This document shows positions 1-13,315 of a stretch of 64,000 bases of DNA, in pieces. The DNA comes from a virus, in IMG/VR virus record IMGVR_UViG_3300013006_000027, positions 1 to 64,000 of that record; one strand, written 5' to 3'. Position 1 is the stretch's first letter. Each line of letters starts with the position of its first letter. The notes beneath the pieces were generated by a model. That model searched no databases. It saw nothing but the letters and a program-made list of their open reading frames with translations, and had not been told where the DNA came from. The position numbers and the translations under genes were made by a program.

Positions 1-60
1 ACAACTACAGCAGGTCCAGGTACAACTACGACAACTACAGCAGGTCCAGGTACAACTACG
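1..60 (+). repeat. 30-bp tandem repeat encoding the TTTAGPGTTT linker
   Basis: acaactacagcaggtccaggtacaactacg twice exactly; another 30-bp duplication at 385-444. Confidence 0.9.
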
Positions 61-2319
61 ACAACTACGGCAGCACCAGGCCCAACCATAATACAGTATA
101 CGTTAACAAATATAGGAACAGAAGGACTAACTATTCAGTCAATGACCTTCAACGATCCTCCAAATATAGGTCATATTGCTAATTTAATAAATTTAGGTGG
201 TTCTAGTGCTGAGACCGGTAATGCATCATTAGTCTATAACTTTCCCGCAAGTACAACACAAACTTTTACTCTAGATTATACTAATTCTGGAGCTGCCCCG
301 GGAACATATCTTGGTAATGTAATTATTGGCGGTAGTAATAGTACCAGTCAAACTATAAATAGTACCATTACGGTCGTTGGAGGAGGTACTACTTCAACTA
401 CAACAGCAGGACCAGGTACTACTTCAACTACAACAGCAGGACCATCACCATCTGGAGTCGGGGCTATATTTGGATTTGGTGCTGATGCCTCATCTGCATA
501 TCTTTCAACGACCAATCTAGTGTCTGCCACTGGTGTTGTTGCTGCTGATGTTACTAGTGTTGGCACTGGTAGATTTGGTCTAGCAGCAGCTAGTTATGGC
601 GGTGATAAAGCTATATTTGGATTTGGAACCGCTGTTCTCTTGTTTGTTCCGTTGCAAGATTGTAATATAACCAATCTAGTAAATAATCTTGGTGTTGTTG
701 CTACAGATAATTCTGGTGTTGGTACTGCAAGGGGGGGTCTAGCAGCAGCAGGATATGGTGGCGATAAAGCTATATTTGGATTTGGTGAAATCAATAGTAG
801 TGGTTATACCCCTGTAAATATGACCAATCTAGTAACTAATACTGGTGTTGTTGCTACCGACCAATCCGCATTAACTGGTACAGCAAGATATCAACTAGCA
901 GCAGCAGGATATGGTGGCGATAAAGCTATATTTGGATTTGGTCAGGATTTCTATCCAGGGACTGTCTTTTCAATAACCAATCTAGTAGATAATCTTGGTG
1001 TTGTTGTTGCTGACCAAACCGCATTAACTGGTACCGCAAGGCAAGGTCTAGCCGCAGCAGGGTATGGTGGCGATAAAGCTATATTTGGATTTGGCTCTAA
1101 TAGTAGTGGTTATACCACTGTAAATATAACCAATCTAGTAAATAATCTTGGTGTTGTTGCTACAGATACCACTGGTGTTGGTACCGCAAGGCAAGGTCTA
1201 GCCGCAGCAGGATATGGTGGCGATAAAGCTATATTTGGATTTGGTTATACCGGTTCTTCCTACACTAACATAACTAATTTAGTATCTAATACTGGAGTTG
1301 TTGTTGCTGATCAAACCGCATTAACTGGTACTGCAAGATCGGCTTTAGCAGGAGCTAGTCTTGGTAGTGCAGTCACACCTACAACTACAACTACTACAAC
1401 AGCAGCACCTTCTGGGCCTACACAGGCTATATTTGGATTTGGAAGTGATCCACTTAATGACGTTTCAACAACCAACCTAGTAGATAGTAATGGTGTTGTT
1501 GCTGCTAACCAAACTGCATTAACTGGTACTCCGAGGAGTGGTTTAGCAGCAGCAGGATATGGCGGTGATAAGGCTATATTTGGATTTGGTTATGCATACC
1601 CTGCAGGTAATTATTCAGTAACCAATCTAGTAGATAATCTTGGTGTTGTAGTTGCAGATACACCCGGTGTTGGTACTCCAAGAAGAAGTGTGGCGGCAGC
1701 AGGATATGGTACTGATAAAGCTATATTTGGATTTGGATTTACTGGCACTTCTGTTTCAATAACCAATCTAGTAAATAATCTTGGTGTTGTTTCTGCTGAT
1801 CAAGCCTTATTAACTGGTACTCCAAGAGGTAATTTAGCAGCAGCAGGATTTGGTGTTGATCAAGCTATATTTGGATTTGGAGTTACGGGCACCAGTACTA
1901 CTTTATCAACAACCAACCTAGTATCTAATACTGGTGTTGTTTCTGCTGATCAAACTGCATTAACTGGTACTCCGAGGGCTAGTTTAGCAGCAGCAGGATA
2001 TGGCGGTGATAAAGCTATATTTGGATTTGGTTTTGATAATGGTACTTTTACACCGCTTTCAGTAACCAACCTAGTAGATAATCTTGGTGTTGTTGCTACA
2101 GATACCTCTGGTGTTGGTACTCCAAGGTCTGGTTTAGCAGCAGCAGGATATGGTACTGATAAAGCTATATTTGGATTTGGTACTACTCTGAGTAGTAGTG
2201 GTGGTACTAAGGTATCAATAACCAATCTAGTAAATAATCTTGGTGTTGTTGCTGTTGACCAAACTGCATTGACTGGTACTGCAAGAAGTGCTCTAGCAGC
2301 AGCTAGTTTTGGTACCTAA
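1..2319 (+). CDS. 5'-partial virion surface protein: Thr-rich linker, Ig-like (ASH/choice-of-anchor D-like) domain, two 6-bladed Kelch-like beta-propellers
   Basis: Frame is open from base 1 (TTTAGPGTTTT...YTLTNIGTEGLTIQSM), so it extends beyond the ORF-track start at 142; 12 repeats of AIFGFG-x(7-13)-ITNLV.N.GVV.TD..GVGTARxxLAAAGYGGDK in two groups of six. Confidence 0.85.
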   Translation, partial: TTTAGPGTTTTTTAGPGTTTTTTAAPGPTIIQYTLTNIGTEGLTIQSMTFNDPPNIGHIANLINLGGSSAETGNASLVYNFPASTTQTFTLDYTNSGAAPGTYLGNVIIGGSNSTSQTINSTITVVGGGTTSTTTAGPGTTSTTTAGPSPSGVGAIFGFGADASSAYLSTTNLVSATGVVAADVTSVGTGRFGLAAASYGGDKAIFGFGTAVLLFVPLQDCNITNLVNNLGVVATDNSGVGTARGGLAAAGYGGDKAIFGFGEINSSGYTPVNMTNLVTNTGVVATDQSALTGTARYQLAAAGYGGDKAIFGFGQDFYPGTVFSITNLVDNLGVVVADQTALTGTARQGLAAAGYGGDKAIFGFGSNSSGYTTVNITNLVNNLGVVATDTTGVGTARQGLAAAGYGGDKAIFGFGYTGSSYTNITNLVSNTGVVVADQTALTGTARSALAGASLGSAVTPTTTTTTTAAPSGPTQAIFGFGSDPLNDVSTTNLVDSNGVVAANQTALTGTPRSGLAAAGYGGDKAIFGFGYAYPAGNYSVTNLVDNLGVVVADTPGVGTPRRSVAAAGYGTDKAIFGFGFTGTSVSITNLVNNLGVVSADQALLTGTPRGNLAAAGFGVDQAIFGFGVTGTSTTLSTTNLVSNTGVVSADQTALTGTPRASLAAAGYGGDKAIFGFGFDNGTFTPLSVTNLVDNLGVVATDTSGVGTPRSGLAAAGYGTDKAIFGFGTTLSSSGGTKVSITNLVNNLGVVAVDQTALTGTARSALAAASFGT

Positions 2320-2326
2320 CTATTAG

Positions 2327-2370
2327 TATTCATACGCATATTGGATCATTGTAACAAGTTTATTATGAGA
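2327..2370. repeat. 44-bp dispersed repeat, copy 1 (copy 2 at 5757-5800)
   Basis: tattcatacgcatattggatcattgtaacaagtttattatgaga; 41/44 identical to copy 2; each lies 7 nt after the stop of a propeller gene. Confidence 0.9.
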
Positions 2371-2410
2371 GAATAGCAATATTATAAATGAATAATTATA
2401 TATTTACTAT

Positions 2411-2418
2411 GATAAATA
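2411..2418 (+). promoter_or_regulatory. T4-type late promoter core
   Basis: GATAAATA 16 nt before ATG; (A/C)TAAATA recurs before many structural genes (6625, 12616, 19967, 20722, 23163, 23892, 25459, 44321, 47554, 50355, 50844, 51795, 53860, 57110; minus strand 62600). Confidence 0.7.
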
Positions 2419-2434
2419 TATAAAAGATGAATAT

Positions 2435-5400
2435 ATGGCAGCAAGACAATTTACATTAAGAAATGCTGGAACAAGTAGTTTAGTTATACAGTCAGTGACT
2501 TTTAATGGTCTTTCTGGCATTGGTCATACCGCTAATTTGGTAAATTTAGGTGGTTCAAGCACCGAGACTGGTAATGCAACGTTGTCGTATACTCTTGCTT
2601 CAAATACTGTGCAAACTTTTACAGTAGATTATTATGACGCAGGCGCCGGCCTTGGAACATATACCGGTAATATAGTAATTGGTTGTAGCAATAATGTCAG
2701 TTCAACTACTATATCTAGTACAGTTCGGATTAATCCAACAACTACTACTACAACATCTACTACTACAACATCTACTACTACAACAACCACACGAGCACCT
2801 ACTACAACAACTACACGAGGACCTACTACAACAACTACAACAGCAGGACCAGGTACAACTACAACCACACGAGCACCTACAACTACAACTACAACTACAG
2901 CAGCTCCATTATCTGGAGCTAGGGCTATATTTGGATTTGGTAGCAATGGCTCTCTTAATTTTCTTGCTATAACTAATAAAGTATCTGATACTGGTGTTGT
3001 ACAGACCGATATTACTTATCCGTTTAGTACTCCAAGATATGGCGCGGCAGCAGCAGGATTTGGAGGAGATCAAGCTATATTTGGATTTGGTCAAATTAAA
3101 ATTGCTAACGTCTTCATCCCGACTTCTATAACCAATCTAGTAGATAATACTGGTGTTGTTGCTACTGATACTGAGGGTGTTGGTACTGCAAGATATAGTC
3201 TAGCAGCAACAGGATATGGCGGTGATAAGGCTATATTTGGATTTGGTGAAACTAGTGGTCCTACCGTTGTCTCCATGACCAACCTAGTAGATAATACAGG
3301 TGTTGTTGCCACTGATACTACAGGTGTTGGTACTCCAAGGCGAAGTTTGGCAGCAGCTAGTTATGGTTATGATAAGGCTATATTTGGATTTGGCGTTCGA
3401 ACTGGTGGGGCGACTTCTATAACCAATCTAGTATCTAATCTCGGTGTTGTTGCTACTGACCAAACCACATTAACTGGTACAGCAAGGCAAGGTCTAGCAG
3501 CCGCAGGATATGGGTATGATAAAGCTATATTTGGATTTGGTTGGGATATTAATCTTATTTATGTTTCAATAACCAATAAAGTAACTAATACCGGAGTAAT
3601 TGCCGCAGATATTACTAGTGTTGGTACTGCAAGGCAAGGTCTAGCAGGATCAGGCTATGGCAGTGATACAGCTATATTTGGATTTGGTAGTTCCAATGGT
3701 CCTGTTTATTATTCAATAACCAATCTAGTATCTAATCTTGGTGTTGTTGCTACTGATACTGCTGGTGTTGGTACTGCAAGGTCGTTTCTTGCAGCAGCAA
3801 GATTTGGTGCTACTGTAGTTCCACCTAGTACTACCACAACAACGGCAGGACCACCAGCTGGACTTAATGCTATATTTGGATTTGGACGGGTCGATGGAGA
3901 TGGTTATTTTTCAATGACCAATAAAGTATCTGATACTGGCGTTGTTGCTACAGATACTACTGGTGTTGGTACTGCAAGAAATAGGTTAGCAGCAGCAGGA
4001 TTTGGCGGTAATAAAGCTATATTTGGATTTGGAGACCGCGGTGGTGAATTTGGTACTTCCATAACTAATACTGTATCTGATCAAGGGGTTGTTGCTACAG
4101 ATACCGCTGGTGTTGGTACAGGAAGGATGGATCTAGCAGCAGCAGGATATGGCAGTGATAAAGCTATATTTGGATTTGGACATGTCAATTTCGCCGAGAC
4201 TGAGTTATCAATAACCAATCTAGTAGATAATACAGGTGTTGTTGCCACTGATACTACAGGTGTTGGTACTGCAAGATATGGTTTAGCAGCCGCAAGTTAT
4301 GGCGGTGATAAAGCTATATTTGGATTTGGACAGGCCAATTTAATCAATGTTTCAATGACTAATCTAGTATCTAATCTCGGTGTTGTTGCTACTGATACTA
4401 CTGGTGTTGGTACTGCAAGACATTATCTAGCCGCAGCAGGATATGGTAGTGGTCAGGCTATATTTGGATATGGTCTAATCAGTGGTTATGTTTCAGTAAC
4501 TAATTTAGTATCTGATCAAGGGGTTGTTGCTACAGATACCGCTGGTGTCGGCAGTGCAAGGGGTTATCTAGCAGCAGCAGGATTTGGTGGCGATCAGGCT
4601 ATTTTTGGATTTGGAACTGTTTCTGGCGGCGGTTCTGGTACTGCAATAACTAATCTAGTAAATAATCTCGGTGTTGTTGCTACTGATACAGCCGGTGTTG
4701 GTACTGGAAGATGGGGACTAGCAGCAGCAAGTTATGGCAGTGGATCCGCACCAATCAATACCACGACTACAACCACATCAGGATCTACAACTACTAGTAC
4801 AACCACATCAGGATCTACAACTACTAGTACAACCACATCAGGATCTACAACTACGACAACGGCAGCACCATCAACTGGATTTAGAGCTATATTTGGATTT
4901 GGGTATGTTTCATTTAGTACTAATATAACTAATCTAGTATCTAATACTGGTGTTGTTTCTACAGATACCGCTGGTGTTGGTACTGAAAGGGAAAGTCTAG
5001 CAGCAGCCGGGTATGGTGGTGATCGAGCTATATTTGGATTTGGAATAGATACGTCTGGGTACCTGTCGATGACTAATCTAGTATCTAATACTGGTGTTGT
5101 TGCTACTGATACTACTGGTGTTGGTACTACAAGATATTATCTAGCAGCAGCAGGATATGGCGGTGATAAAGCTATATTTGGATTTGGTACTACTGGTAGT
5201 AGAACTAATATAACCAACCTAGTATCTAATACTGGTGTTGTTGCGACAGATACCGCTGGTGTTGGTACTGCATTAAGTACTCTAGCAGCAGCCGGGTATG
5301 GTTATGATAAGGCTATATTTGGATTTGGAGTGGATACCTTATTTGTTACAGTTTCAATAACTAGTCTATTTTCTAATACTGGCATTTTTGTTAGTGAATC

Positions 5401-5749
5401 TACAAGTGTTGGTACTGCAAGGGAAAGTCTAGCAGCAGCAGGATTTGGAGGAGATCAAGCTATATTTGGATTTGGGTACTTGGGCGGTACCGGGGATTTG
5501 TCAATAACCAATCTAGTGTCTAATCTTGGTGTTGTTGCTGCTGACCAAACTGCATTAAATGGTTCTCCAAGATATAATCTAGCGGCAGCAGGGTATGGCG
5601 GTGATAAGGCTATATTTGGATATGGAAGAGCCTTTGGCGCCATTACCAACGTAACCAATCTAGTATCTAATCTTGGTGTTGTTGCTACAGATACTCTTGG
5701 TGTTGGTACTGCACGAGAACGTCTAGCAGCAGCAGGATATGGCACTTGA
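2435..5749 (+). CDS. virion surface protein: Ig-like domain, Thr-rich stalk, three 6-bladed Kelch-like propellers
   Basis: N-terminal domain paralogous to that of the upstream ORF (GH.ANL.NLGGSS.ETGNA); 18 repeats in three groups of six separated by poly-Thr linkers. Confidence 0.85.
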   Translation: MAARQFTLRNAGTSSLVIQSVTFNGLSGIGHTANLVNLGGSSTETGNATLSYTLASNTVQTFTVDYYDAGAGLGTYTGNIVIGCSNNVSSTTISSTVRINPTTTTTTSTTTTSTTTTTTRAPTTTTTRGPTTTTTTAGPGTTTTTRAPTTTTTTTAAPLSGARAIFGFGSNGSLNFLAITNKVSDTGVVQTDITYPFSTPRYGAAAAGFGGDQAIFGFGQIKIANVFIPTSITNLVDNTGVVATDTEGVGTARYSLAATGYGGDKAIFGFGETSGPTVVSMTNLVDNTGVVATDTTGVGTPRRSLAAASYGYDKAIFGFGVRTGGATSITNLVSNLGVVATDQTTLTGTARQGLAAAGYGYDKAIFGFGWDINLIYVSITNKVTNTGVIAADITSVGTARQGLAGSGYGSDTAIFGFGSSNGPVYYSITNLVSNLGVVATDTAGVGTARSFLAAARFGATVVPPSTTTTTAGPPAGLNAIFGFGRVDGDGYFSMTNKVSDTGVVATDTTGVGTARNRLAAAGFGGNKAIFGFGDRGGEFGTSITNTVSDQGVVATDTAGVGTGRMDLAAAGYGSDKAIFGFGHVNFAETELSITNLVDNTGVVATDTTGVGTARYGLAAASYGGDKAIFGFGQANLINVSMTNLVSNLGVVATDTTGVGTARHYLAAAGYGSGQAIFGYGLISGYVSVTNLVSDQGVVATDTAGVGSARGYLAAAGFGGDQAIFGFGTVSGGGSGTAITNLVNNLGVVATDTAGVGTGRWGLAAASYGSGSAPINTTTTTTSGSTTTSTTTSGSTTTSTTTSGSTTTTTAAPSTGFRAIFGFGYVSFSTNITNLVSNTGVVSTDTAGVGTERESLAAAGYGGDRAIFGFGIDTSGYLSMTNLVSNTGVVATDTTGVGTTRYYLAAAGYGGDKAIFGFGTTGSRTNITNLVSNTGVVATDTAGVGTALSTLAAAGYGYDKAIFGFGVDTLFVTVSITSLFSNTGIFVSESTSVGTARESLAAAGFGGDQAIFGFGYLGGTGDLSITNLVSNLGVVAADQTALNGSPRYNLAAAGYGGDKAIFGYGRAFGAITNVTNLVSNLGVVATDTLGVGTARERLAAAGYGT
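4771..4854 (+). repeat. 30-bp tandem repeat (TTSGSTTTST linker), about 2.8 copies
   Basis: aaccacatcaggatctacaactactagtac repeated. Confidence 0.9.
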
Positions 5750-5756
5750 TTATCTT

Positions 5757-5800
5757 TATTCATACGCATATTGGATCATTCTAACAAGTTTGATATGAGA
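5757..5800. repeat. 44-bp dispersed repeat, copy 2
   Basis: tattcatacgcatattggatcattctaacaagtttgatatgaga. Confidence 0.9.
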
Positions 5801-5920
5801 AAAATATGTTTCATGACTTTTAGATAGGCATATATATTCAATACAGCAAGGATCAATTCATATCATTTCTCTAAAAAGATATGCTATTGTCAATGCTAAC
5901 TTTTTATATAAGGAATATAT

Positions 5921-6562
5921 ATGCCATCAAAATTTAACTCTGAATTTAATTACCGTTACCTGGTCAACGGCGAAACACCTTGGGAAAAAATCAAAATCCT
6001 TAAAGGATTTTTGGAAGGTAGAAAACGTGCTGCTTGTTTGGAAGAAGTTGCCGCAAAAAAACGTTTGGCAAAAGAACTAGAATTGGAAAACTGCAAAAAT
6101 AACAATGCATTACCCCATGTTATCTTAAATTTAGAAGCAGAACTCTTAGAATCTAAATCTTTTGATGAAGGACAAAATGAAGCATGGGAATTAAATCGAC
6201 AAGAAATTGCATTTTTAGAAAGTTTTCTAGCAGAAATATATGAGGTCGCTGAACAAACTAGAATTCCCGGTTATACAGATGAACAAATGTTTGAAGCAAA
6301 TGCTGCATACGAGTTTACTGTTATGCTTGGAAAAGAAATTCAAGCAGAAATTATTGCAAATGGTCGACCATCACCTGCAAAATTAAGAAATGCTATGTCA
6401 AATCCATATACATTTGAAACTTTGAAGAGAGTAGGACTAGTTCCACAAGAAGCAGTCTTATTAGATACTACTGTTCAAAATCCATTAGAGTTGGCATTTA
6501 ATGAAGTTGTTACTGAAACTAAAAATTTACAAATTCAACATAGTAACGTAAAAACAGAGTAA
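5921..6562 (+). CDS. hypothetical alpha-helical protein within the propeller gene cluster
   Basis: 213 aa, AAGGA RBS, E/K-rich helical composition. Confidence 0.8.
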   Translation: MPSKFNSEFNYRYLVNGETPWEKIKILKGFLEGRKRAACLEEVAAKKRLAKELELENCKNNNALPHVILNLEAELLESKSFDEGQNEAWELNRQEIAFLESFLAEIYEVAEQTRIPGYTDEQMFEANAAYEFTVMLGKEIQAEIIANGRPSPAKLRNAMSNPYTFETLKRVGLVPQEAVLLDTTVQNPLELAFNEVVTETKNLQIQHSNVKTE

Positions 6563-6660
6563 TCTTTGTACCTAAAAATCATTTGGTATAAAGATGTACT
6601 GTGCAGGTAAGATAATATAAATTTGATAAATATTCATAGAATATATTTCAGGAATATCCA

Positions 6661-9600
6661 ATGACCTATGCACAGTACAATCTTATAGAAGCATCTGATT
6701 TCAATGCCCTAATTGGTAACAATCCTGGTAATACAGCAAATACACTTAACACTACATGGGCCGTTGGTAACGGTAACGCTGGTTACGGACAGCAGCAGGT
6801 AGCAAATGTTGCTATAGGATATACTGTTGCTAATATTGATTGGGCTACTTTAATTAATAATACCGCAAACTCAGCGGCTCATCAAGGTTCTACAATTACT
6901 AGTGTTACTCCACCTTCTGGCGGAAATACTATAGCATATATTGCTGCGGTTACAAATAATTTAACTACAATTTATAATAATCGTCTTAATGCAGTAGCGC
7001 AAGGGCTGATCCCTGCATCTAACACTGTTACTAGTGGTAACACGTGGACTAGTAATATAGTATTCACTCAGACAGCATCTTTTGCGAATGGTGATGCGGC
7101 TCGATACTTTTTTAATGCAGGTGGACAGTTAGTTATTACCTGTGCTCATCCAACTGGTAGTACAATTAACAATATATTCCATGGTTTAGCTGCAAACATA
7201 GGCAATGTTACATTAAGTTCACCTACAACAGGTGTTATAAATGTTGCCGGTAATTCGTTTAGTGGTATTAGTAAATTAGGAGGAAGTGGACAAACACCTA
7301 GTATACTTACTAACAATGGGTATTATGCGTTGACAACTAGTAACGCAAATGTATTTACACAAATTGATGGTGTGGATTCTACTTTTAGTTCTAGCTATAT
7401 TAATATAAAAGTTAAATCTAATGGAACTCAAGGTAGTTACGGAGATGCAGGAAATGTTATAACATTCTATACTACATGGCAGGAACTACCAGTTGGTACG
7501 ACAGTATCAGCAGGTACGGCAACTACGCTAACTGCGATTTATCCATCAAGTAATAATATTGCCAACACTTGGGGTACGGTAACTGTTCAAGGATCATCAC
7601 CGATCACACCAACAACTACTACTACAACTACAACAGGCCCGGGCACTACAACTACAACTACAGCAGCTCCATCACCAGCTCCAGCTGGATCTGCTATATT
7701 TGGATTTGGATTTGGTACTAAACCGAGTGGTCAAGGTGCACTCAACATGACCAATCTAGTAAATTATTTTGGTGTTGTTGCTACAGATACCACTGGTGTT
7801 GGTACTGAAAGATCTGGTCTAGCAGCAGCAGGATATGGTGTTGGTCAGGCTATATTTGGATTTGGTTACACCGGTGGTGGTACTTATTTTTCGATCACCA
7901 ATCTAGTATCTAGTGCTGGTGTTGTTGCTACAGATACGACTGGTGTTGGTACTGCAAGGCGAGAACTAGCAGCAGCAGGATATGGTAGTGGTCAGGCTAT
8001 ATTTGGATTTGGTGAAGACGCCGGCTCGGTTGCCGTTTCAATAACCAACCTAGTAGATAATACAGGTGTTGTTGCTACTGATACTACTGGTGTTGGTACT
8101 GCAAGGAATGGACTAGCAGCAGCCGAATATGGTGTTGGTCAGGCTATATTTGGATTTGGAAGTTCTTCTGGTGGGTATTATACGAATATAACCAATCTAG
8201 TAAATAATCTTGGTGTTGTTGCTACTGACCAAACTGCATTAACTGGTACTATAAGATCTAGACTAGCAGCCGCAGGATATGGCGGTAATAAAGCTATATT
8301 TGGATTTGGAAATGATGGGGTATCTCATGTTTCAATTACCAATCTAGTATCTAATCTTGGTGTTGTTGCTGCTAACCAAACCGCATTAACTGGCACAGCA
8401 AGATCTAATCTAGCAGCAGCAGGATATGGTGGTGATAAAGCAATATTTGGATTTGGAGCTTTTGGTAGCGGTTTAACCCGAACTTCTATAACCAATCTAG
8501 TATCTAATCTTGGTGTTGTTGCTGCTGATGTTACTGGGGTTGGTACTGCAAGGCAGGACCTTGCAGCAGCAGGATATGGTAGTGGACCCCCACCATTGAC
8601 TACAACTACAACTACAGCAGCTCCAACACCTACACCTGGATCTGCTATATTTGGATTTGGATTGAATAATGTCGGCGATGAAACATCAATAACCAATCTA
8701 GTAAATAATAACGGTGTCGTTAGTAATGATGTTACTAGTGTTGGTACTGCAAGGCGAAGTCCAGCAGCGGCAGGATATGGCACTGATAAGGCTATATTTG
8801 GATTTGGATTTGCAAATCTACTAAGTTACATCGCAATAACTAATCTAGTATCTAATCTTGGTGTGGTTGCCACAGATACTGCTGGTGTTGGTACTCCAAG
8901 ATCTGCTTTAGCAGCAGCAGGATATGGTGGTGATAAAGCTATATTTGGATTTGGTAATGATAATAGTGGTGCACCTTTTTCAATGACCAATCTAGTAAAT
9001 AATCTTGGTGTGGTTGCTGCTGATACCACTGGTGTTGGTACGGCAAGATATGGTCTAGCAGCAGCAGGATTTGGTGTTGGTCAAGCTATATTTGGATTTG
9101 GAAATACTGGCATTGCTGTTTCAATAACCAATCTAGTAGATAATAACGGTGTTATTGTTTCTGAAACTGCTGGTGTTGGTACTGCAAGATATGGTCTAGC
9201 AGCAGCAGGGTATGATAGTGATAAAGCTATATTTGGATTTGGTAGATCATCTAGTTTAACATCAATAACCAATAAAGTATCTAATCTTGGTGTCGTGCAG
9301 GCTGATGTTACCAATCTTAGCTCTACAGCAAGAGATGCTCTAGCAGCAGCAGGATACGGTAGTGGTCAAGCTATATTTGGATTTGGTAGAGTAGGCCCCT
9401 TATCGGGAACTGCTTCGGTTCGAATAATCAATCTAGTAAATAACCTAGGTACTATTGTTAGTGAATCTGCTGGTGTTGGTACTCCAAGGTCTGGACTAGC
9501 AGCAGCAGGGTATGGTGGTGTACCTCCTTCGCCACCTACAACTACAACTACAACTACAATAGGCCCAGGCACTACAACTACTACTACAACCGCAAGTCCA

Positions 9601-11604
9601 GGACCAACTAGAGATGGAAAAGCTATATTTGGATTTGGATTTGCTGGCGGCTCTGATGTTTCAATAACCAATAAAGTAAATAATATTGGTACTGTTACTA
9701 CAGATACTACAGGTGTTGGTACTGCAAGAGTAATACTAGCAGCCGCAAGTTATGGCGGTGATAAAGCTATATTTGGATTTGGACGGGCCGGTGGCATCGA
9801 TGTTTCAATAACCAACCTAGTATCTAATCTTGGTGTTGTTGCCACAGATACAACTGGTGTTGGTACTGCAAGATATGGACTAGCAGCAGCAGGGTATGGT
9901 GGTGATAAAGCTATATTTGGATTTGGGGTGGGATCGCTTGCGTCGTCCACAATAATTAATCTAGTATCTAATACTGGTGTAGTTGCTACAGATACGGCTG
10001 GTGTTGGTACGGCAAGATCTCAACTAGCAGCAGCCGGCTATGGTTATGATAAAGCTATATTTGGATTTGGAGCAAGTGGGGTTGGTTTATTCTCAATAAC
10101 CAATCTAGTAAATAATCTTGGTGTTGTTGCTACAGATACTGCTGGTGTTGGTACTCCGAGGTATGGTCTAGCAGCAGCAGGATATGGTACAGACAAGGCA
10201 ATATTTGGATTTGGTGTTACTAGTAATCCAACTAGTATAACCAATCTAGTATCTAATCTTGGTGTTGTTATTGTTGATCAAGCCGCATTAACTGGTACTG
10301 CAAGATATGGACTAGCAGCAGCAGGATATGGCGGTGATAAAGCTATATTTGGGTTTGGTTTTACCAACATTTCTCTTGGCAACCCTACTAACGTAACCAA
10401 TCTAATAACTAATACTGGTGTGGTTGGCAATGATGTCACTGGTGTTGGTACTGCAAGGTCAGGTCTAGCAGCAGCCGGATATGATAATGTACAACCACTG
10501 AATTATACATTTCCGATACCTGGTACTTACTCTGTAGCACCTATACCCGGCTACCCCTATCTTGCACTAGAATTGGTTGGTGCGGGGGGCGGTGGAGGCG
10601 GCACTGATGGATACGGCGCTAGTTATGCAGGTGGTGGCGGTGGTTCTGGTGGGTATTCTTTTGATATTTTAGATACTACCGGAACAAGTGGTAACTTCAC
10701 TGTAACTGTAGGCGCTGGCGGAACTGCTGCTAGTGCTAGCCTCGACGGTACTGTTTATCCAGGTGTACCTGGCATAACTAGAACTGGTACAAAAAATGCT
10801 GGAACCGGAGGCATATCTTCACTACTATACGGTTTAACAAATTATTATACTGCTCTAGGAGGAGTTGGAGGTACCGGTAATACAGGTAGTAACGATGATG
10901 GTGTGGGCGGAGCTGGCGGTATAGGTAGAACTATTTCTGGTAATCCTGGAGTCACCCCTTCTACTCCGATAGATATTTATCCAGCAGCAGCAGGAGGCGC
11001 TAGCGTATATGGTGGATTTGGTACAGGTGGAGCTAGTCAAAATAGTAACTTTACTTCTAATTCAGATGCAAACTTGCCACAAGCCGGTGGTAATGGTTAT
11101 GTAAGAATGCAATTCTCTAGCACTCTACCTAGTACAACTACTACAACTACTACTGCTGCACCAAGTGGTACTATCAATACTGCATTGTTTACTTACTTAA
11201 CAAATAATAGTTTTTATGGATCAATTTCTGGTGGAACCGATGCTAGCACATATATTTTATTTTATTCTAACGGTAACTTTGCAATTCTTGATCAATCAGG
11301 AACTAATTTAACCAATGGAGCCCCAACTAATCAATATTGGTTCAGTGGGGGATTTGTAACTCCGGGATTAGTCCATTGGTTCAGATTTACACAAACTGCT
11401 GTGAATGGTTATACCGCTACAGCTACAACTGGTTGGATTCAACCAGGAGTCGCCGGGATCGCAGCAGCATATGTAGCAAATAATTATAATGCAACTACAG
11501 ACGCAACTTATACCATAGAAGTTGCGTCAGATTCATCAGGTACTAACATCGTAGCAACCGCTACCGGGGTGTTAATATCCGCAACACAGTACCCTCCCCC
11601 GTAA
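6661..11604 (+). CDS. large virion protein: ~310-aa structural N-terminal domain, three Kelch-like propellers, Gly-rich domain, C-terminal beta domain
   Basis: 1647 aa; late promoter at 6625; 18 blades in three groups of six; GAGGGGG...GGGGGSGGY Gly-rich domain typical of tail fibres. Confidence 0.85.
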   Translation: MTYAQYNLIEASDFNALIGNNPGNTANTLNTTWAVGNGNAGYGQQQVANVAIGYTVANIDWATLINNTANSAAHQGSTITSVTPPSGGNTIAYIAAVTNNLTTIYNNRLNAVAQGLIPASNTVTSGNTWTSNIVFTQTASFANGDAARYFFNAGGQLVITCAHPTGSTINNIFHGLAANIGNVTLSSPTTGVINVAGNSFSGISKLGGSGQTPSILTNNGYYALTTSNANVFTQIDGVDSTFSSSYINIKVKSNGTQGSYGDAGNVITFYTTWQELPVGTTVSAGTATTLTAIYPSSNNIANTWGTVTVQGSSPITPTTTTTTTTGPGTTTTTTAAPSPAPAGSAIFGFGFGTKPSGQGALNMTNLVNYFGVVATDTTGVGTERSGLAAAGYGVGQAIFGFGYTGGGTYFSITNLVSSAGVVATDTTGVGTARRELAAAGYGSGQAIFGFGEDAGSVAVSITNLVDNTGVVATDTTGVGTARNGLAAAEYGVGQAIFGFGSSSGGYYTNITNLVNNLGVVATDQTALTGTIRSRLAAAGYGGNKAIFGFGNDGVSHVSITNLVSNLGVVAANQTALTGTARSNLAAAGYGGDKAIFGFGAFGSGLTRTSITNLVSNLGVVAADVTGVGTARQDLAAAGYGSGPPPLTTTTTTAAPTPTPGSAIFGFGLNNVGDETSITNLVNNNGVVSNDVTSVGTARRSPAAAGYGTDKAIFGFGFANLLSYIAITNLVSNLGVVATDTAGVGTPRSALAAAGYGGDKAIFGFGNDNSGAPFSMTNLVNNLGVVAADTTGVGTARYGLAAAGFGVGQAIFGFGNTGIAVSITNLVDNNGVIVSETAGVGTARYGLAAAGYDSDKAIFGFGRSSSLTSITNKVSNLGVVQADVTNLSSTARDALAAAGYGSGQAIFGFGRVGPLSGTASVRIINLVNNLGTIVSESAGVGTPRSGLAAAGYGGVPPSPPTTTTTTTIGPGTTTTTTTASPGPTRDGKAIFGFGFAGGSDVSITNKVNNIGTVTTDTTGVGTARVILAAASYGGDKAIFGFGRAGGIDVSITNLVSNLGVVATDTTGVGTARYGLAAAGYGGDKAIFGFGVGSLASSTIINLVSNTGVVATDTAGVGTARSQLAAAGYGYDKAIFGFGASGVGLFSITNLVNNLGVVATDTAGVGTPRYGLAAAGYGTDKAIFGFGVTSNPTSITNLVSNLGVVIVDQAALTGTARYGLAAAGYGGDKAIFGFGFTNISLGNPTNVTNLITNTGVVGNDVTGVGTARSGLAAAGYDNVQPLNYTFPIPGTYSVAPIPGYPYLALELVGAGGGGGGTDGYGASYAGGGGGSGGYSFDILDTTGTSGNFTVTVGAGGTAASASLDGTVYPGVPGITRTGTKNAGTGGISSLLYGLTNYYTALGGVGGTGNTGSNDDGVGGAGGIGRTISGNPGVTPSTPIDIYPAAAGGASVYGGFGTGGASQNSNFTSNSDANLPQAGGNGYVRMQFSSTLPSTTTTTTTAAPSGTINTALFTYLTNNSFYGSISGGTDASTYILFYSNGNFAILDQSGTNLTNGAPTNQYWFSGGFVTPGLVHWFRFTQTAVNGYTATATTGWIQPGVAGIAAAYVANNYNATTDATYTIEVASDSSGTNIVATATGVLISATQYPPP

Positions 11605-11613
11605 GTTAAAAAT

Positions 11614-11664
11614 TTATCATCACACTCATAATTAGCTATATAAAGCTATACGGTGTGATGATAA
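11614..11664 (+). promoter_or_regulatory. stem-loop covering the translation-initiation region of the glycosyltransferase gene
   Basis: ttatcatcacac (11614-11625) / gtgtgatgataa (11653-11664), perfect 12-bp inverted repeat ending 1 nt before ATG. Confidence 0.55.
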
Positions 11665-11665
11665 C

Positions 11666-12604
11666 ATGAAAAAAAATCTAAGATTTATTTGCGTACAACC
11701 TGCCATTGATTACTATACTTGGCAAGTTGAAGTTATGATTAATAACTTCATGGAAAAAGGAATAAACCCTAACTACATTGACGTAGTATGTGGTATACAA
11801 AACAATCATGTTCCTGAAAGATGGCAAAAATTAGCTAACCATTATAATATGGTTAGATTCTTCTTCTATAACAATACTAGACAATCACCTGGCTATATTA
11901 GCTCTCTAAGACCACATATAATGAAAAAACATTTTCAAGCTAGACCTGAATTACTAGATGAAGCCATATTCTATCACGATAATGATATCATGTTCACTGA
12001 TCGGATAAACTTTGATCAATTTTTAGAAGACGATATATGGTATGGTTCAGATTGTCGTTGGTATATCTCTCACGATTACATCATTAGCAAAGGTGAAGAT
12101 GTATTGGACGCTATGTGCAATATTGTTAAGATTGACAAATCTTTGGTTAAAGAAAATGAGCTAAACAGTATTGGTGCTCAATACTTAATGAAAAATCTTA
12201 CCGCAGAATTTTGGGAAAACGTTGAACGTGATTGTGAAAAGTTATTTGTGGATATTACTGCTATGAATAACATTAAAAAGCAAGCAAATCCTGGATACCA
12301 TGAATTGCAAATTTGGTGCGCTGATATGTGGGCTGTACTTTGGAATGGATGGAAACTAGGTAACAAAACAGAATGTCATAAAGACCTTAGCTTTAGTTGG
12401 GCTACTTCACCGGCAAGAGAATGGAACGATCATAAAATATTTCATAATGCAGGTGTTACTGGAACAGAAAATGGTCAATTTTACAAAGCTAACTATATGC
12501 AAACATTACCCTACAATCAACCCCTAGAAATAAAGCCTGATTATTGTAGTTACCATTATTGGCTATGGGTACAAAAAGTTGCCCAAATGTCTTGCTTAAC
12601 ATAG
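11666..12604 (+). CDS. GT-A fold glycosyltransferase resembling GT95/GT96 protein O-glycosyltransferases
   Basis: YYTWQVEVM near N-terminus, DxD motif (YHDNDIMF), WCADMWA and C-terminal IFHNAG, matching the Y..WQ / DxD / W..EMY / H layout of HPAT/SGT1-type enzymes. Confidence 0.6.
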   Translation: MKKNLRFICVQPAIDYYTWQVEVMINNFMEKGINPNYIDVVCGIQNNHVPERWQKLANHYNMVRFFFYNNTRQSPGYISSLRPHIMKKHFQARPELLDEAIFYHDNDIMFTDRINFDQFLEDDIWYGSDCRWYISHDYIISKGEDVLDAMCNIVKIDKSLVKENELNSIGAQYLMKNLTAEFWENVERDCEKLFVDITAMNNIKKQANPGYHELQIWCADMWAVLWNGWKLGNKTECHKDLSFSWATSPAREWNDHKIFHNAGVTGTENGQFYKANYMQTLPYNQPLEIKPDYCSYHYWLWVQKVAQMSCLT

Positions 12605-13009: not shown

Positions 13010-13287
13010 AAAGACGGGCAAGACTCGGGTTCGACTCCCGACCGGTCCACCAAAAGCATACTAGAGTGATGCTGGGGAAGAGTAATAGTCAGCGGTTAAT
13101 AAATCTTCCAAGTATGCTTTTGATGGGCCGGCCATGGTATCGATTGACGGATGAGTAGATGAGTGGACAACACGATAGGCGATGGACGTAATCCAAGCAA
13201 AATCTATAAATGCCAACGATGAGGTATTTGCTATAGCCGCATGAGGCTGAGCCGGAGTAGGAAAGACTCTGTAAAATAACTAACCTG
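13010..13287 (+). ncRNA. ssrA: circularly permuted (two-piece) tmRNA; outer ends approximate
   Basis: Acceptor piece GAC-UCGGG-UUCGACU-CCCGA-CCGGUCC-ACCA ends at 13052; 72-nt intervening segment; coding piece begins GGGCCGG at 13125 (7-bp acceptor stem with G3:U70); tag 13212-13244 ANDEVFAIAA* preceded by ATAAAT. Confidence 0.92.
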
Positions 13288-13288
13288 T

Positions 13289-13315
13289 AATAGGCCCGAA
13301 AGGGCCTATTATTTT
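13289..13315 (+). terminator. intrinsic terminator after tmRNA
   Basis: aataggccc-gaaa-gggcctatt followed by a T-rich run. Confidence 0.85.

What the first reader, a model, noticed from the sequence alone, without database searches (positions are those of the whole stretch)
460..10490. 48 beta-propeller blades with a constant framework and hypervariable loops (antibody-like repertoire)
Seen: three genes carry 8 domains, each of exactly six ~50-aa repeats. The framework is almost invariant even at synonymous sites (AIFGFG is nearly always gctatatttggatttgg). Two positions vary strongly: the 7-13-aa loop after GFG (all 48 differ, e.g. ADASSAYLS, QDFYPGTVFS, WDINLIYVS, HVNFAETELS) and the two residues in T(A/P)R-xx-LAAA. 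Known: the repeat aligns with Kelch blades (PRxxhAA...K.hhhGG-loop), where these two sites are the DA and BC loops forming the top ligand-binding face. Inference: this is a phage surface-display repertoire in which recombination or gene conversion through identical frameworks shuffles binding loops. Loop-length variation and no visible RT argue against a DGR.
Basis: partly seen in the sequence, partly recalled or inferred. Interest (0 to 1): 0.88.

Follow-up and report, generated by a model that had tools for sequence, protein, structure and literature searches.

The report
Phage Kelch-like propeller binding heads
Three genes of an uncultured lake-water jumbo-type phage encode eight six-bladed Kelch-like propellers whose scaffold is nearly frozen, even in its codons, while the loops on one face differ in all 48 blades; they are most likely a fixed set of binding heads, not an actively shuffled antibody-like library.

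Summary
There are 48 blades (12+18+18) in 8 domains of exactly six. The 17-mer GCTATATTTGGATTTGG is exact in 42 of 48 blades. All 48 BC loops (7-13 aa) are distinct, and the dipeptide after the conserved Arg is also hypervariable.

An AlphaFold model (pLDDT 93) superposes on the KEAP1, KLHL12 and KLHL17 Kelch domains (Z 34, rmsd 2.3 A over about 280 residues). Both variable sites lie in the BC and DA loops, which form the ligand face in Kelch domains.

Anchored hypervariable codons have pN 0.66, against framework pS 0.28. Loop similarity is uncoupled from framework similarity. Codon identity at shared framework residues is 0.80 within the window and 0.42-0.61 to other phages, which points to lineage-specific amplification or concerted evolution. 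Gene g1 shows a 3-blade amplification period.

I found no sign of an active diversifier:
- No RT, no loop donors and no detectable conversion tracts.
- Six pairs of near-identical contigs of other family-bearing phages carry identical propellers.
- A 93-94% relative keeps at least three blades, loops included, nearly unchanged.

The family is large, phage-only and absent from Pfam and PHROGs. The propeller usually sits at the C-terminus, and homologues are fused to Mtd_N, Phage_min_tail, collagen and lectin-like domains.

This scan met the same family before on other DNA and reached similar verdicts. I class it as a new variant of a known kind.

The parts
1..2319 (+). g1, a partial CDS cut at its 5' end by the contig start. 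It has a Thr/Gly/Pro linker, a ~100-aa N-terminal domain, then propeller 1 (nt 463-1365) and propeller 2 (nt 1426-2316).
   Evidence: Searches give the ORF, its 12 blades and domain limits. A 3-blade periodicity is seen (offsets 3/6/9 = 0.855/0.838/0.848 against about 0.79; permutation p = 0.0004).
2327..2370 (+). First copy of a 44-bp element lying directly after the g1 stop codon.
   Evidence: The 24-nt core occurs exactly twice in the window, after g1 and after g2.
2435..5749 (+). g2 (1104 aa). It has an N-terminal ~100-aa domain paralogous to that of g1, a long Thr-rich linker, then propellers 3 (2924-3808), 4 (3869-4738) and 5 (4886-5746).
   Evidence: The first propeller (window:2912-3814) was modelled at pLDDT 93.2 and pTM 0.90.
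5757..5800 (+). Second copy of the 44-bp element, directly after the g2 stop codon.
5921..6562 (+). 213-aa ORF between g2 and g3, in the position held by a conserved ~207-aa gene (phrog_11259 in L002) in related phages.
   Evidence: the ORF; the ~207-aa gene in relatives and its PHROG. The window ORF itself matched no PHROG or Pfam family, so the correspondence rests on position and size only.
6661..7620 (+). g3 N-terminal 320-aa module, a helical subdomain followed by a beta-sandwich. In most related phages it is a stand-alone ~317-aa gene.
   Evidence: 250 related viral stretches were found. The model has pLDDT 89.7, with no clear fold match.
7693..10485 (+). g3 propellers 6 (7693-8580), 7 (8644-9516) and 8 (9622-10485), joined by Thr/Pro linkers.
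   Evidence: The syntenic ortholog in L001 (706 aa) keeps the N- and C-terminal modules but has no propellers.
10486..11604 (+). g3 C-terminal part: a glycine-rich domain, a Thr linker and a ~150-aa C-terminal domain.
   Evidence: There is a weak Gly_rich_2 (PF21722) match, E 1e-3, below the cut-off. A BFVD relative, A0A6J5PIS4, is a 'Glycine-rich domain-containing protein' that also carries the propeller.
11666..12604 (+). Neighbouring 312-aa gene (phrog_4417, function unknown).
   Evidence: One search gives the PHROG match, and it is syntenic in L001. The glycosyltransferase idea comes from note e1-6057036 and was not tested here.

Best explanation
g1, g2 and g3 are modular appendage proteins of an uncultured lake-water myovirus. 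Its large terminase is nearest to PA5oct-like jumbo phages.

Each six-repeat unit folds into a closed six-bladed Kelch-type beta-propeller. Each blade places one long BC loop (7-13 aa) and the two residues after the DA-loop arginine on the same top face. Six loops and six dipeptides therefore ring the central depression and form one binding site per propeller.

The eight propellers have eight different faces. They are strung on extended Thr/Pro-rich linkers, which would give multivalent or multi-specific attachment, most likely to host-envelope glycans or proteins.

The set arose by amplification of blade units (a 3-blade unit in g1) and of whole domains within this lineage. Framework DNA stayed close to one consensus, through concerted evolution and/or codon-level constraint. 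The face residues changed faster than synonymous sites, which indicates diversifying selection together with small indels.

Shown here: the fold, the location of the variability, the rate asymmetry, the lineage-specific codon homogeneity, and the stability of loops between near-identical relatives.

Inferred: virion display, the nature of the ligand, and gene conversion as the homogenising force.
For: Fold:
- AF2 model, pLDDT 93.2, pTM 0.90.
- Foldseek top hits are KLHL12, KLHL20 and KEAP1 Kelch domains (E about 1e-13, TM about 0.8).
- VIA-align gives Z 34, rmsd 2.3 A over 278-283 residues, with model residues 1-300 matching KEAP1 324-611.
- In Kelch domains the BC and DA loops form the top substrate pocket (PMC10087726).

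Variability and rates:
- Entropy is concentrated in the BC loop and the post-Arg dipeptide.
- Pooled framework pS is 0.278 (dS about 0.35). Codons 7, 8, 43 and 44 have pN 0.655 (dN about 1.5).
- Loop and dipeptide identity are uncorrelated with framework identity (rho -0.04 and -0.03). Loop identity stays at the shuffled level (0.48 against 0.45), even for the 48 blade pairs with at least 90% framework identity.
- Pairs such as g1_7/g1_10 and g1_2/g1_5 have near-identical frameworks and unrelated loops.

Lineage-specific homogeneity:
- Codon identity at shared framework residues is 0.80 within the window and 0.42-0.61 to other phages.
- The window's majority codons differ from the family majority at several positions. 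They are spread evenly over all six blade positions.
- g1 has a 3-blade period, p = 0.0004.

Stability of loops:
- Six pairs of 99-100% identical contigs of other phages have identical propeller loops.
- Run X3 holds a relative 93-94% identical in the flanks, with blades g1_2, g1_4 and g1_5 matching at 0-1 differences.

Evidence for a binding-head role:
- In 34 of the first 40 listed relatives of at least 450 aa, the propeller ends within 3 residues of the C-terminus.
- Homologues are fused to Mtd_N, Phage_min_tail, collagen repeats, Laminin_G_3 and fn3.
- The propeller gene in L113/L138 sits next to a long tail-fibre-like repeat protein.
- Kelch-type propeller proteins are known in jumbo phages, and CBB_552 is found in the virion by mass spectrometry (PMC5259590).

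The family is essentially viral: 6 hits among one genome for each of 185,579 prokaryote species, all in MAGs of unrelated phyla. Atlas clusters are 100% Viruses.
Against: - No direct evidence places g1, g2 or g3 in the virion.
- Their N-terminal domains match no known virion family. The g3 N-terminal model has no convincing fold match (best Z 6.2).
- In g3 the propellers are internal, not terminal.
- Gene conversion is not demonstrated. Linkage between framework polymorphisms is nil at all distances, and a PHI-like test is not significant (p = 0.63). Blades are star-like, with no positional identity.
- Part of the codon bias is family-wide (GCT, ATA, TTT, GGA, AGA). Codon-level selection or shared ancestry could therefore explain part of the synonymous conservation.
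- The contig is estimated to be only 23% complete.
Confidence: 0.6

Rival explanations
1. Active, programmed diversification. A dedicated RT-independent mechanism would rewrite the loops between invariant framework motifs, for example by cassette replacement or targeted hypermutation primed by the invariant 17-mer. That would create a true somatic-like repertoire within the phage population.
For: - Loop and dipeptide divergence is about 4 times framework dS.
- The near-invariant 15-17 nt directly upstream of every loop has third-position diversity of 0.08 or less, while the next codon jumps to 0.61.
- Blade pairs with 93-96% identical frameworks have loops of different length and sequence, and 3 of the 6 dipeptide bases differ in the closest pairs.
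- Contigs in the source-like runs X1 and X2 carry window-like frameworks around loops that are not in the window, at similar depth.
Against: - No RT in the contig, and no donor copies of any loop.
- Loop lengths vary and third codon positions are not template-like, unlike a DGR.
- Near-identical contigs of other family-bearing phages, five of the six pairs from different metagenomes, have identical loops.
- The X3 relative keeps three blades virtually unchanged although its flanks differ by 6-7%.
- The extra loops in X1 and X2 can come from the unsampled roughly 77% of the genome or from co-occurring relatives.
Confidence: 0.06
2. Same fold and the same evolved variability, but not displayed on the virion. 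The proteins would be released, or would act inside or on the infected cell, for example as decoys, adaptors that capture host proteins (as poxvirus Kelch proteins do), or matrix or particle binders.
For: - There is no virion-family match for the N-terminal domains of g1, g2 or g3.
- Kelch propellers in eukaryotes and poxviruses are intracellular protein-protein adaptors (hits).
Against: - There is no BTB or other adaptor domain.
- Thr/Pro-rich linkers are typical of extracellular stalks.
- Homologues are fused to tail and fibre modules (Mtd_N, Phage_min_tail, collagen) and to lectin-like domains.
- The genes lie in synteny with fibre-like and virion structural genes in relatives.
Confidence: 0.15
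3. Nothing is special about the DNA. The synonymous conservation would simply reflect a recent burst of duplication from one blade, plus codon preference. The loops would be unconstrained spacers that drift with indels, with no binding function under selection.
For: - The blade relationships are star-like, with no recombination signal.
- Part of the codon preference is family-wide.
- Short loops fall back to a default xTGxxVS form.
Against: - Neutral drift cannot exceed the synonymous rate, yet anchored sites without indels (the dipeptide) have pN 0.63 against framework pS 0.28.
- The variable sites are exactly the ligand-face sites of Kelch domains.
- Loops are perfectly conserved between near-identical phages and in a 93-94% relative, so they are under constraint once set.
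- The same two sites vary across 67 aligned family members.
Confidence: 0.12

Closest known systems
Kelch domains of BTB-Kelch adaptors (KEAP1, KLHL12, KLHL17, KLHL20) and the designed symmetric SAKe6 Kelch proteins
   Same: - Six four-stranded blades of about 50 aa, with the same strand order and the same closure.
- The domain starts with the strand-B equivalent, as KEAP1 does at residue 324.
- There is an Arg before strand A and a Gly pair after strand B.
- The ligand face is made of the BC and DA loops.
- Z 34, rmsd 2.3 A; Foldseek E about 1e-13.
   Different: - Sequence identity is only 10-15%.
- No Pfam Kelch model passes (best E 0.06, 13 bits against a cut-off of 50), and no PDB sequence or profile match was found.
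- The motif is G-[FY]-G rather than GG, and there is no conserved Trp.
- There is no BTB/BACK domain.
- Internal repeat identity is far higher than in cellular Kelch proteins and closer to that of the designed SAKe proteins.
Fungal HNWD/NWD WD40-repeat non-self recognition genes (het-d, het-e) of Podospora anserina (PMC1805685, PMC2873952)
   Same: - Propeller repeats are highly conserved at the DNA level within a genome.
- A few positions per repeat are under diversifying selection.
- Those positions cluster on the interaction face of the propeller.
- Many repeats are spread over several paralogous genes.
   Different: - The fungal case is a WD40 fold, not Kelch.
- There, repeat number is polymorphic and repeats are demonstrably exchanged within and between loci, with RIP as a proposed extra mutator.
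- Here the number is fixed at six per domain, no exchange tracts are detectable, and whole loops of variable length vary, not only single residues.
Kelch-type propeller proteins of jumbo phages (CBB_550/552/554; also reported in Pseudomonas and Yersinia giant phages; BcepSaruman 'Kelch-motif containing protein')
   Same: - They are phage-encoded six-bladed Kelch-type propellers.
- At least one (CBB_552) is a virion component by mass spectrometry (PMC5259590).
- Structural similarity in BFVD is TM 0.6-0.8.
   Different: - Identity is only 12-24%.
- Some of them are recognised by InterPro/Pfam Kelch models, whereas this family is not.
- No near-frozen scaffold with hypervariable loops has been reported for them in the papers I read.
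- tblastn of the propeller (E <= 1e-10) found no match in the 50,697-record phage collection.
DGR variable proteins (Bordetella phage BPP-1 Mtd and relatives)
   Same: - A phage receptor-binding head with a constant scaffold and a variable ligand surface.
- One homologue (P0042) carries the Mtd_N domain in front of the propeller, where Mtd has its C-type lectin variable domain.
   Different: - The fold differs (propeller against C-type lectin).
- There is no RT and no template repeat.
- Loop length varies and there is no adenine-specific pattern.
- Loops are stable between near-identical genomes.
Five-bladed propeller 'platform' domains of receptor-binding proteins of Gram-positive siphophages (S. 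aureus phages, Brochothrix phage NF5)
   Same: A beta-propeller that carries the receptor-binding sites in a phage tail or baseplate protein (PMC12917162).
   Different: They have five blades and are not Kelch-like in sequence. They occur as a single copy within a trimeric RBP, and no repeat-level hypervariability is described.

Membership tests
Kelch-type six-bladed beta-propeller (fold level) | Six blades, each a four-stranded antiparallel sheet of about 44-56 residues arranged round a central axis. | tested here: met
   The AF2 model has pLDDT 93.2. It matches KEAP1, KLHL17 and KLHL12 at Z 34, rmsd 2.3 A over 278-283 of 301 residues, with Foldseek TM about 0.8.
Kelch-type six-bladed beta-propeller (fold level) | Ring closure by a blade built from both termini, so that the domain begins at a strand other than strand A. 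| tested here: met
   Every domain begins with AIFGFG (the strand-B equivalent) and ends with LAAAxxG (strand A). The model aligns in register, residues 1-300 to KEAP1 324-611.
Kelch repeat (Pfam Kelch_1-6 / CL0186, sequence level) | A match to a Kelch profile above the curated threshold, with the GG doublet and conserved Tyr, Trp and Arg of the motif. | tested here: not met
   The only hit is PF24681 at E 0.06, 13 bits against a cut-off of 50. There is no PDB sequence or profile hit to any Kelch protein. The Arg and a G-[FY]-G are present, but there is no conserved Trp.
Diversity-generating retroelement target | A reverse transcriptase and a template repeat near the variable region. | tested here: not met
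   PF00078 gives no match in the 78-kb contig, while the control genomes were detected. No second copy of any loop exists in the contig. Caveat: the contig is estimated at 23% of the genome.
Diversity-generating retroelement target | Variation by substitution only, at template adenines, with constant length. | tested here: not met
   Loop length ranges from 7 to 13 aa. All three codon positions vary, with no fixed third base.
Concertedly evolving hypervariable propeller repeats (fungal HNWD type) | Repeats more alike within a genome than between genomes at synonymous sites. | tested here: met
   Codon identity is 0.80 within the window against 0.42-0.61 (mean 0.53-0.55) to other phages. The window-specific majority codons occur at all six blade positions.
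Concertedly evolving hypervariable propeller repeats (fungal HNWD type) | A few positions per repeat evolve faster than synonymous sites and map to the interaction face. | tested here: met
   pN is 0.655 at codons 7, 8, 43 and 44 against framework pS 0.278. These codons lie in the BC loop and the end of the DA loop, which form the top face.
Concertedly evolving hypervariable propeller repeats (fungal HNWD type) | Demonstrable exchange of repeats, and repeat-number polymorphism. | tested here: inconclusive
   There is no LD decay and the PHI-like test gives p = 0.63. The number is fixed at six per domain here, and six is the mode in 159 other loci. g1 shows a 3-blade amplification, and one X3 contig shows a different domain junction.
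Phage receptor-binding / tail-fibre head domain | A distal (C-terminal) position on proteins whose N-termini are tail or fibre modules. | tested here: met
   This was met for homologues, not for the window's own genes. In 34 of the first 40 relatives of at least 450 aa the propeller is C-terminal. Fusions include Mtd_N, Phage_min_tail and collagen.
Phage receptor-binding / tail-fibre head domain | Presence in the virion and binding to a host receptor. | not testable with these tools
   This needs proteomics or cryo-EM and binding assays on a cultured relative. No match was found in the phage genome collection searched.

The most novel reading that the evidence does not exclude
The invariant 15-17-nt framework motif directly upstream of each loop, together with complete loop replacement between blades whose frameworks are 93-96% identical, could mark an RT-independent, sequence-guided loop-replacement or hypermutation process. 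Such a process would act episodically in T4-like jumbo phages: a new kind of phage diversity generator working on a Kelch scaffold.
Probability: 0.06. Interest if true: 0.9.

Novelty: new variant of a known kind. Interest (0 to 1): 0.55.

Why it matters
This is a very large, phage-only protein family. It has more than 2,000 clusters at 90% identity, 761 at 50%, and hundreds of viral contigs, mostly from lakes. Pfam, PHROGs, NCBIfam and the PDB do not recognise it.

The family behaves like a natural binder scaffold: a frozen Kelch framework with one programmable face. This window holds the largest array seen among the 160 loci compared here, with eight propellers and 48 distinct blades. It also carries one of the two strongest signatures of lineage-specific framework homogenisation.

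If the propellers are tail-fibre heads, they are a main host-range determinant of abundant freshwater jumbo-type phages, and a ready-made scaffold for engineered binders. The designed symmetric SAKe Kelch proteins are their closest structural matches.

The rate contrast between loops and synonymous framework sites is also a clean natural case for studying how repeat proteins keep a scaffold constant while changing a surface.

Tried and rejected
Genomic contexts of the long-contig homologues (322-348 kb) could not be fetched.
- INPHARED phage records gave no DNA match to the window. tblastn found no match for the propeller or the g3 N-terminal module. No cultured relative or host was found.
- Pfam, PHROGs and NCBIfam gave no family for the propeller, for the g1/g2 N-terminal domain, or for the g3 N- and C-terminal modules.
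- The g3 N-terminal model gave only weak beta-sandwich or galectin-like similarities (Foldseek E >= 0.01; VIA best Z 6.2). I did not interpret these.
- Tests for gene-conversion tracts (four-gamete fraction, r2 against distance, PHI-like permutation) found no signal. This does not exclude very short tracts.
- Blades show no positional correspondence between domains (diagonal 0.801 against off-diagonal 0.796).
- Matching blades across loci by best framework hit was misleading, because frameworks are too alike. It was replaced by collinear BLAST comparison of loci.
- The reads were only Logan contigs, fragmented by the repeats. They cannot show allele frequencies, blade order or absence of variants. 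Joints with novel loops could not be assigned to this genome, to its missing part or to co-occurring relatives.
- A search for close orthologues of g2 among 5.8 billion proteins found none above 69% identity. Loop turnover in true orthologues could therefore not be measured.
- The prokaryote genome scan gave six hits, all in MAGs of unrelated phyla. I treated these as mis-binned phage contigs and made no host inference.
'Same face' therefore rests on strand order, the register of the KEAP1 superposition and published Kelch topology, not on measured distances.
Full report
**1. What is there**

The window is the first 64 kb of a 78,427-bp linear virus contig. CheckV estimates it at 23% complete. 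It encodes a large terminase, tail sheath, helicases and an HNH endonuclease. The terminase is closest, at 48.6% identity, to PA5oct-like Pseudomonas jumbo phages. Two lake-water metagenomes hold the stretch almost completely.

Three + strand ORFs carry the repeats:
- g1, 1..2319, cut at its 5' end by the contig start.
- g2, 2435..5749.
- g3, 6661..11604.

**2. Check of the observation**

The anchor A[IL]FG[FY]G occurs 12, 18 and 18 times. Spacing is 47-53 aa inside domains and 66-96 aa across Thr/Pro-rich linkers. That gives eight domains of exactly six blades, from nt 463 to about 10490.

In a MAFFT alignment of the 48 blades, entropy is 2.4-3.7 bits in the loop after GFG. That loop is 7-13 aa long and differs in all 48 blades. 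Entropy is 3.1 and 2.8 bits at the two residues after the conserved Arg, and below 2 bits elsewhere.

The 17-mer GCTATATTTGGATTTGG is exact in 42 of 48 blades, against 0 expected. Several fixed codons are not the genome's preferred ones: ATA 47/48 against 26% background, CTA 40/42 against 15%, and GGA 47/48 against 25%.

The claim of near-invariance at synonymous sites holds for AIFGF only. Over the whole framework, third-position diversity is 0.28 and blades are about 80% identical in DNA. Loops have diversity of 0.60-0.69 at all three codon positions.

**3. Fold and location of the variable sites**

I modelled one domain (window:2912-3814) with an alignment of the seven paralogous domains and 59 homologues. 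The result was pLDDT 93.2 and pTM 0.90, all-beta.
- Foldseek's best PDB matches are the Kelch domains of KLHL12, KLHL20 and KEAP1 (E about 1e-13, TM about 0.8, 11-15% identity).
- VIA-align gives Z 34 and rmsd 2.3 A over 278-283 residues, to KEAP1, KLHL17, KLHL12 and the designed symmetric SAKe6 proteins. The match is in register, with model residues 1-300 on KEAP1 324-611.

Strand assignment from the model's secondary structure and this register:
- LAAAG is strand A.
- AIFGFG is strand B.
- S-ITNLV is strand C.
- GVVATD is strand D.

The hypervariable loop is therefore the BC loop. The dipeptide is the end of the DA loop, just before strand A. In Kelch domains the AB and CD loops face the bottom. 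The longer DA and BC loops form the top substrate pocket (PMC10087726, section 2.2).

From my recollection of the KEAP1 sequence, its Nrf2-contact residues sit in exactly these two site classes. I did not verify this residue by residue. Model coordinates are not exposed to scripts, so I could not measure distances.

At sequence level the family is not a Kelch family member:
- The best Pfam hit is E 0.06, far below threshold.
- Neither the sequence nor the profile finds any Kelch protein in the PDB.

**4. How the variability compares with neutral change**

The figures below are pooled Nei-Gojobori counts over all 1,128 blade pairs.

| Codon set | pS | pN | Estimated rate |
|---|---|---|---|
| Framework | 0.278 | 0.122 | dS about 0.35 |
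| Codons 7, 8, 43, 44 | 0.566 | 0.655 | dN about 1.5 |
| Dipeptide alone (43, 44) | 0.439 | 0.627 | dN about 1.36 |

Codons 7, 8, 43 and 44 are flanked by invariant residues, so they are not affected by loop misalignment. These sites have changed about four times faster than framework synonymous sites.

Loop and dipeptide identity are uncorrelated with framework identity (Spearman -0.04 and -0.03). Loop alignments score like shuffled loops (0.48 against 0.45). This holds even for the 48 pairs whose frameworks are at least 90% identical.

Direct alignments show the pattern clearly. In g1_7/g1_10, g1_2/g1_5, g2_10/g2_14 and g1_8/g1_11, long identical runs are interrupted exactly at the dipeptide and the BC loop.

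**5. Amplification and homogenisation**

At framework positions where two blades share the residue, codon identity is 0.80 within the window. It is 0.42-0.61 between the window and 19 other non-redundant phage loci. Most other loci have 0.43-0.67 internally, and only L112 (0.88) resembles the window.

The window's majority codon differs from the family majority at several positions:
- TTT against TAT at F/Y.
- TCT against TCA.
- GTT against GTA.
- CTA against TTA.
- GCA against GCC.
- GGA against GGT.

These states are spread evenly over all six blade positions. Blades show no positional identity between domains (0.801 against 0.796).

Taken together, the 48 blades share a lineage-specific consensus that cuts across the old six-position structure. 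That is the classical signature of concerted evolution, or of amplification from very few blades. In g1 a genealogical trace survives. Blades i and i+3, i+6 and i+9 are more alike (0.855, 0.838, 0.848 against about 0.79; permutation p = 0.0004), and the long and short DA-loop types repeat with period 3.

I could not show conversion tracts. Twenty informative framework sites show r2 of 0.02-0.05 at all distances, about half of the site pairs show four gametes, and a PHI-like permutation gives p = 0.63.

Part of the codon bias is also family-wide (GCT 75%, ATA 65%, TTT 97%, GGA 64%, AGA 82% in other phages). Codon-level constraint or shared ancestry therefore contributes.

**6. Is diversification going on now?**

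- The contig has no RT (PF00078 gave no match while control genomes were detected).
- No further blades occur outside 463-10490. No second copy of any loop exists, apart from the paralogous loops of g1_3 and g1_5 (26 of 30 nt).
- Loop codons show no template-like pattern.

Among loci fetched from IMG/VR, six pairs of contigs are 99-100% identical over their shared sequence: L112/L120, L132/L151, L089/L095, L103/L106, L082/L083 and L113/L138. Five of the pairs come from different metagenomes. Their propeller genes are identical. In L113/L138 the only structural differences lie in the neighbouring fibre-like repeat protein.

Logan contigs were laid on 1-11,700:
- X1 and X2 match exactly.
- X3, from a different study, holds a relative that is about 93-94% identical in the unique flanks (5830-7592 and 10321-11700). 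Its contigs cover blades g1_2, g1_4 and g1_5, loops included, with 0-1 differences.
- X3 also has one different domain junction, where a g1_12-like blade is followed by a linker and then g1_1.
- All these runs also contain contigs with window-like frameworks around loops absent from the window. These may come from the missing part of the genome or from co-occurring relatives, and contigs cannot tell which.

On short time scales the loops are therefore stable.

**7. What the family is**

- The domain finds more than 2,192 protein clusters at 90% identity (candidate cap reached). They have 48-64% identity to the query, and almost all are unnamed.
- A profile search of 1.84 billion representatives gives 761 clusters at E <= 1e-3 and 360 at E <= 1e-30.
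Six blades per domain is the mode.
- Only six hits occur in one genome for each of 185,579 prokaryote species. All are MAGs of unrelated phyla.
- Atlas clusters are 100% Viruses. One cluster carries a faint PLL-lectin propeller family, PF26607, on 30% of its members.
- BFVD's best matches are 'uncultured Caudovirales phage' proteins. One of them also has a glycine-rich domain, as g3 does.

In 34 of the first 40 listed relatives of at least 450 aa, the propeller ends at the C-terminus.

Verified partner domains:
- Mtd_N, E 2e-8.
- Phage_min_tail, E 8e-12.
- Collagen repeats.
- Laminin_G_3.
- fn3.

Kelch-type propeller proteins are already known in jumbo phages, and CBB_552 is in the virion by mass spectrometry (PMC5259590).

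**8. Local architecture**

The N-terminal 320 aa of g3 is a conserved module. It is found in 250 viral-contig stretches, usually as a stand-alone ~317-aa gene downstream of a ~2,650-aa protein, a ~207-aa gene and a ~410-aa protein. The ~410-aa protein's N-terminus matches a 'virion structural protein' PHROG.

The syntenic ortholog in the closest locus (L001, 72% identity) is 706 aa. It keeps the N- and C-terminal modules but has no propellers. The three propellers of g3 are therefore an insertion, or were deleted in L001.

In L041 the g1/g2-type N-terminal domain occurs on proteins without propellers, while other proteins there end in one. The propeller is thus a mobile module, and this phage has accumulated far more copies than any of the other 159 loci examined.

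**9. Verdict**

The fold and the one-face location of the variability are supported.

The best reading is a fixed, evolved set of eight binding heads. They were built by amplification on a homogenised scaffold, with diversifying selection on the ligand face.

The 'antibody-like, recombination-shuffled repertoire' reading is only partly supported. Homogenisation and amplification are visible. Ongoing shuffling or a dedicated mechanism is not, and short-term stability argues against it.

Earlier follow-ups in this scan, on other genomes, reached similar conclusions about the same family. My tests here were independent of theirs.

Noticed in passing
window 2327-2370 and 5757-5800: A 44-bp element lies directly after the stop codons of g1 and g2. 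It is about 41/44 identical between the two copies, and its 24-nt core is exact in both and occurs nowhere else in the window. The N-terminal domains of g1 and g2 are much more diverged (roughly half of their residues identical, by eye), so the element is either conserved for a function (terminator or regulatory RNA) or was recently copied.
   Followed up: partly
window 11666-12604, plus the linkers at about 1-110, 390-460, 1366-1425, 2741-2920, 3815-3868, 4745-4885, 7600-7690, 8581-8643, 9517-9621 and 11100-11160: About ten poly-Thr/Pro/Gly/Ser linkers join the domains, like mucin-type stalks. The next gene (312 aa, phrog_4417, function unknown) is syntenic in L001.
   Followed up: no
L001:10001-12097 compared with window 6661-11604: The closest relative's g3 ortholog (706 aa) has the same N- and C-terminal modules but no propellers. 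This is a clean example of modular insertion or deletion of about 940 aa inside a conserved gene.
   Followed up: partly
genome contig 77129-78427 (beyond the window's end), and L113:11008-14995 / L138:1180-4557: The contig ends inside a tail-fibre-like protein made of GNITxGNxN-type repeats. The same kind of protein lies next to a propeller gene in L113/L138, where two 99-100% identical phages differ by repeat-level indels in that fibre gene but not in the propeller.
   Followed up: partly
window 610-1125 (g1 blades 2-5), as seen in run X3: A relative in a 2022 metagenome from another study is 6-7% diverged in the unique flanking genes. Yet it has 98-171-nt contigs identical, or with one difference, to blades g1_2, g1_4 and g1_5. 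The propeller blades seem better conserved than their neighbours, or were recently exchanged.
   Followed up: partly
L112 / L120 (IMG/VR contigs of 68.6 and 67.6 kb): This is a second phage whose 21 blades are even more homogenised at synonymous sites (0.88) than those of the window. It would make a good second case for testing concerted evolution.
   Followed up: no
window 15130-16416: An HNH endonuclease gene (phrog_1314, E 5e-108) lies a few genes downstream of the propeller block. Other first-reader notes list further homing-endonuclease features, and a possible two-piece tmRNA at 13010-13311. I did not examine these.
   Followed up: no
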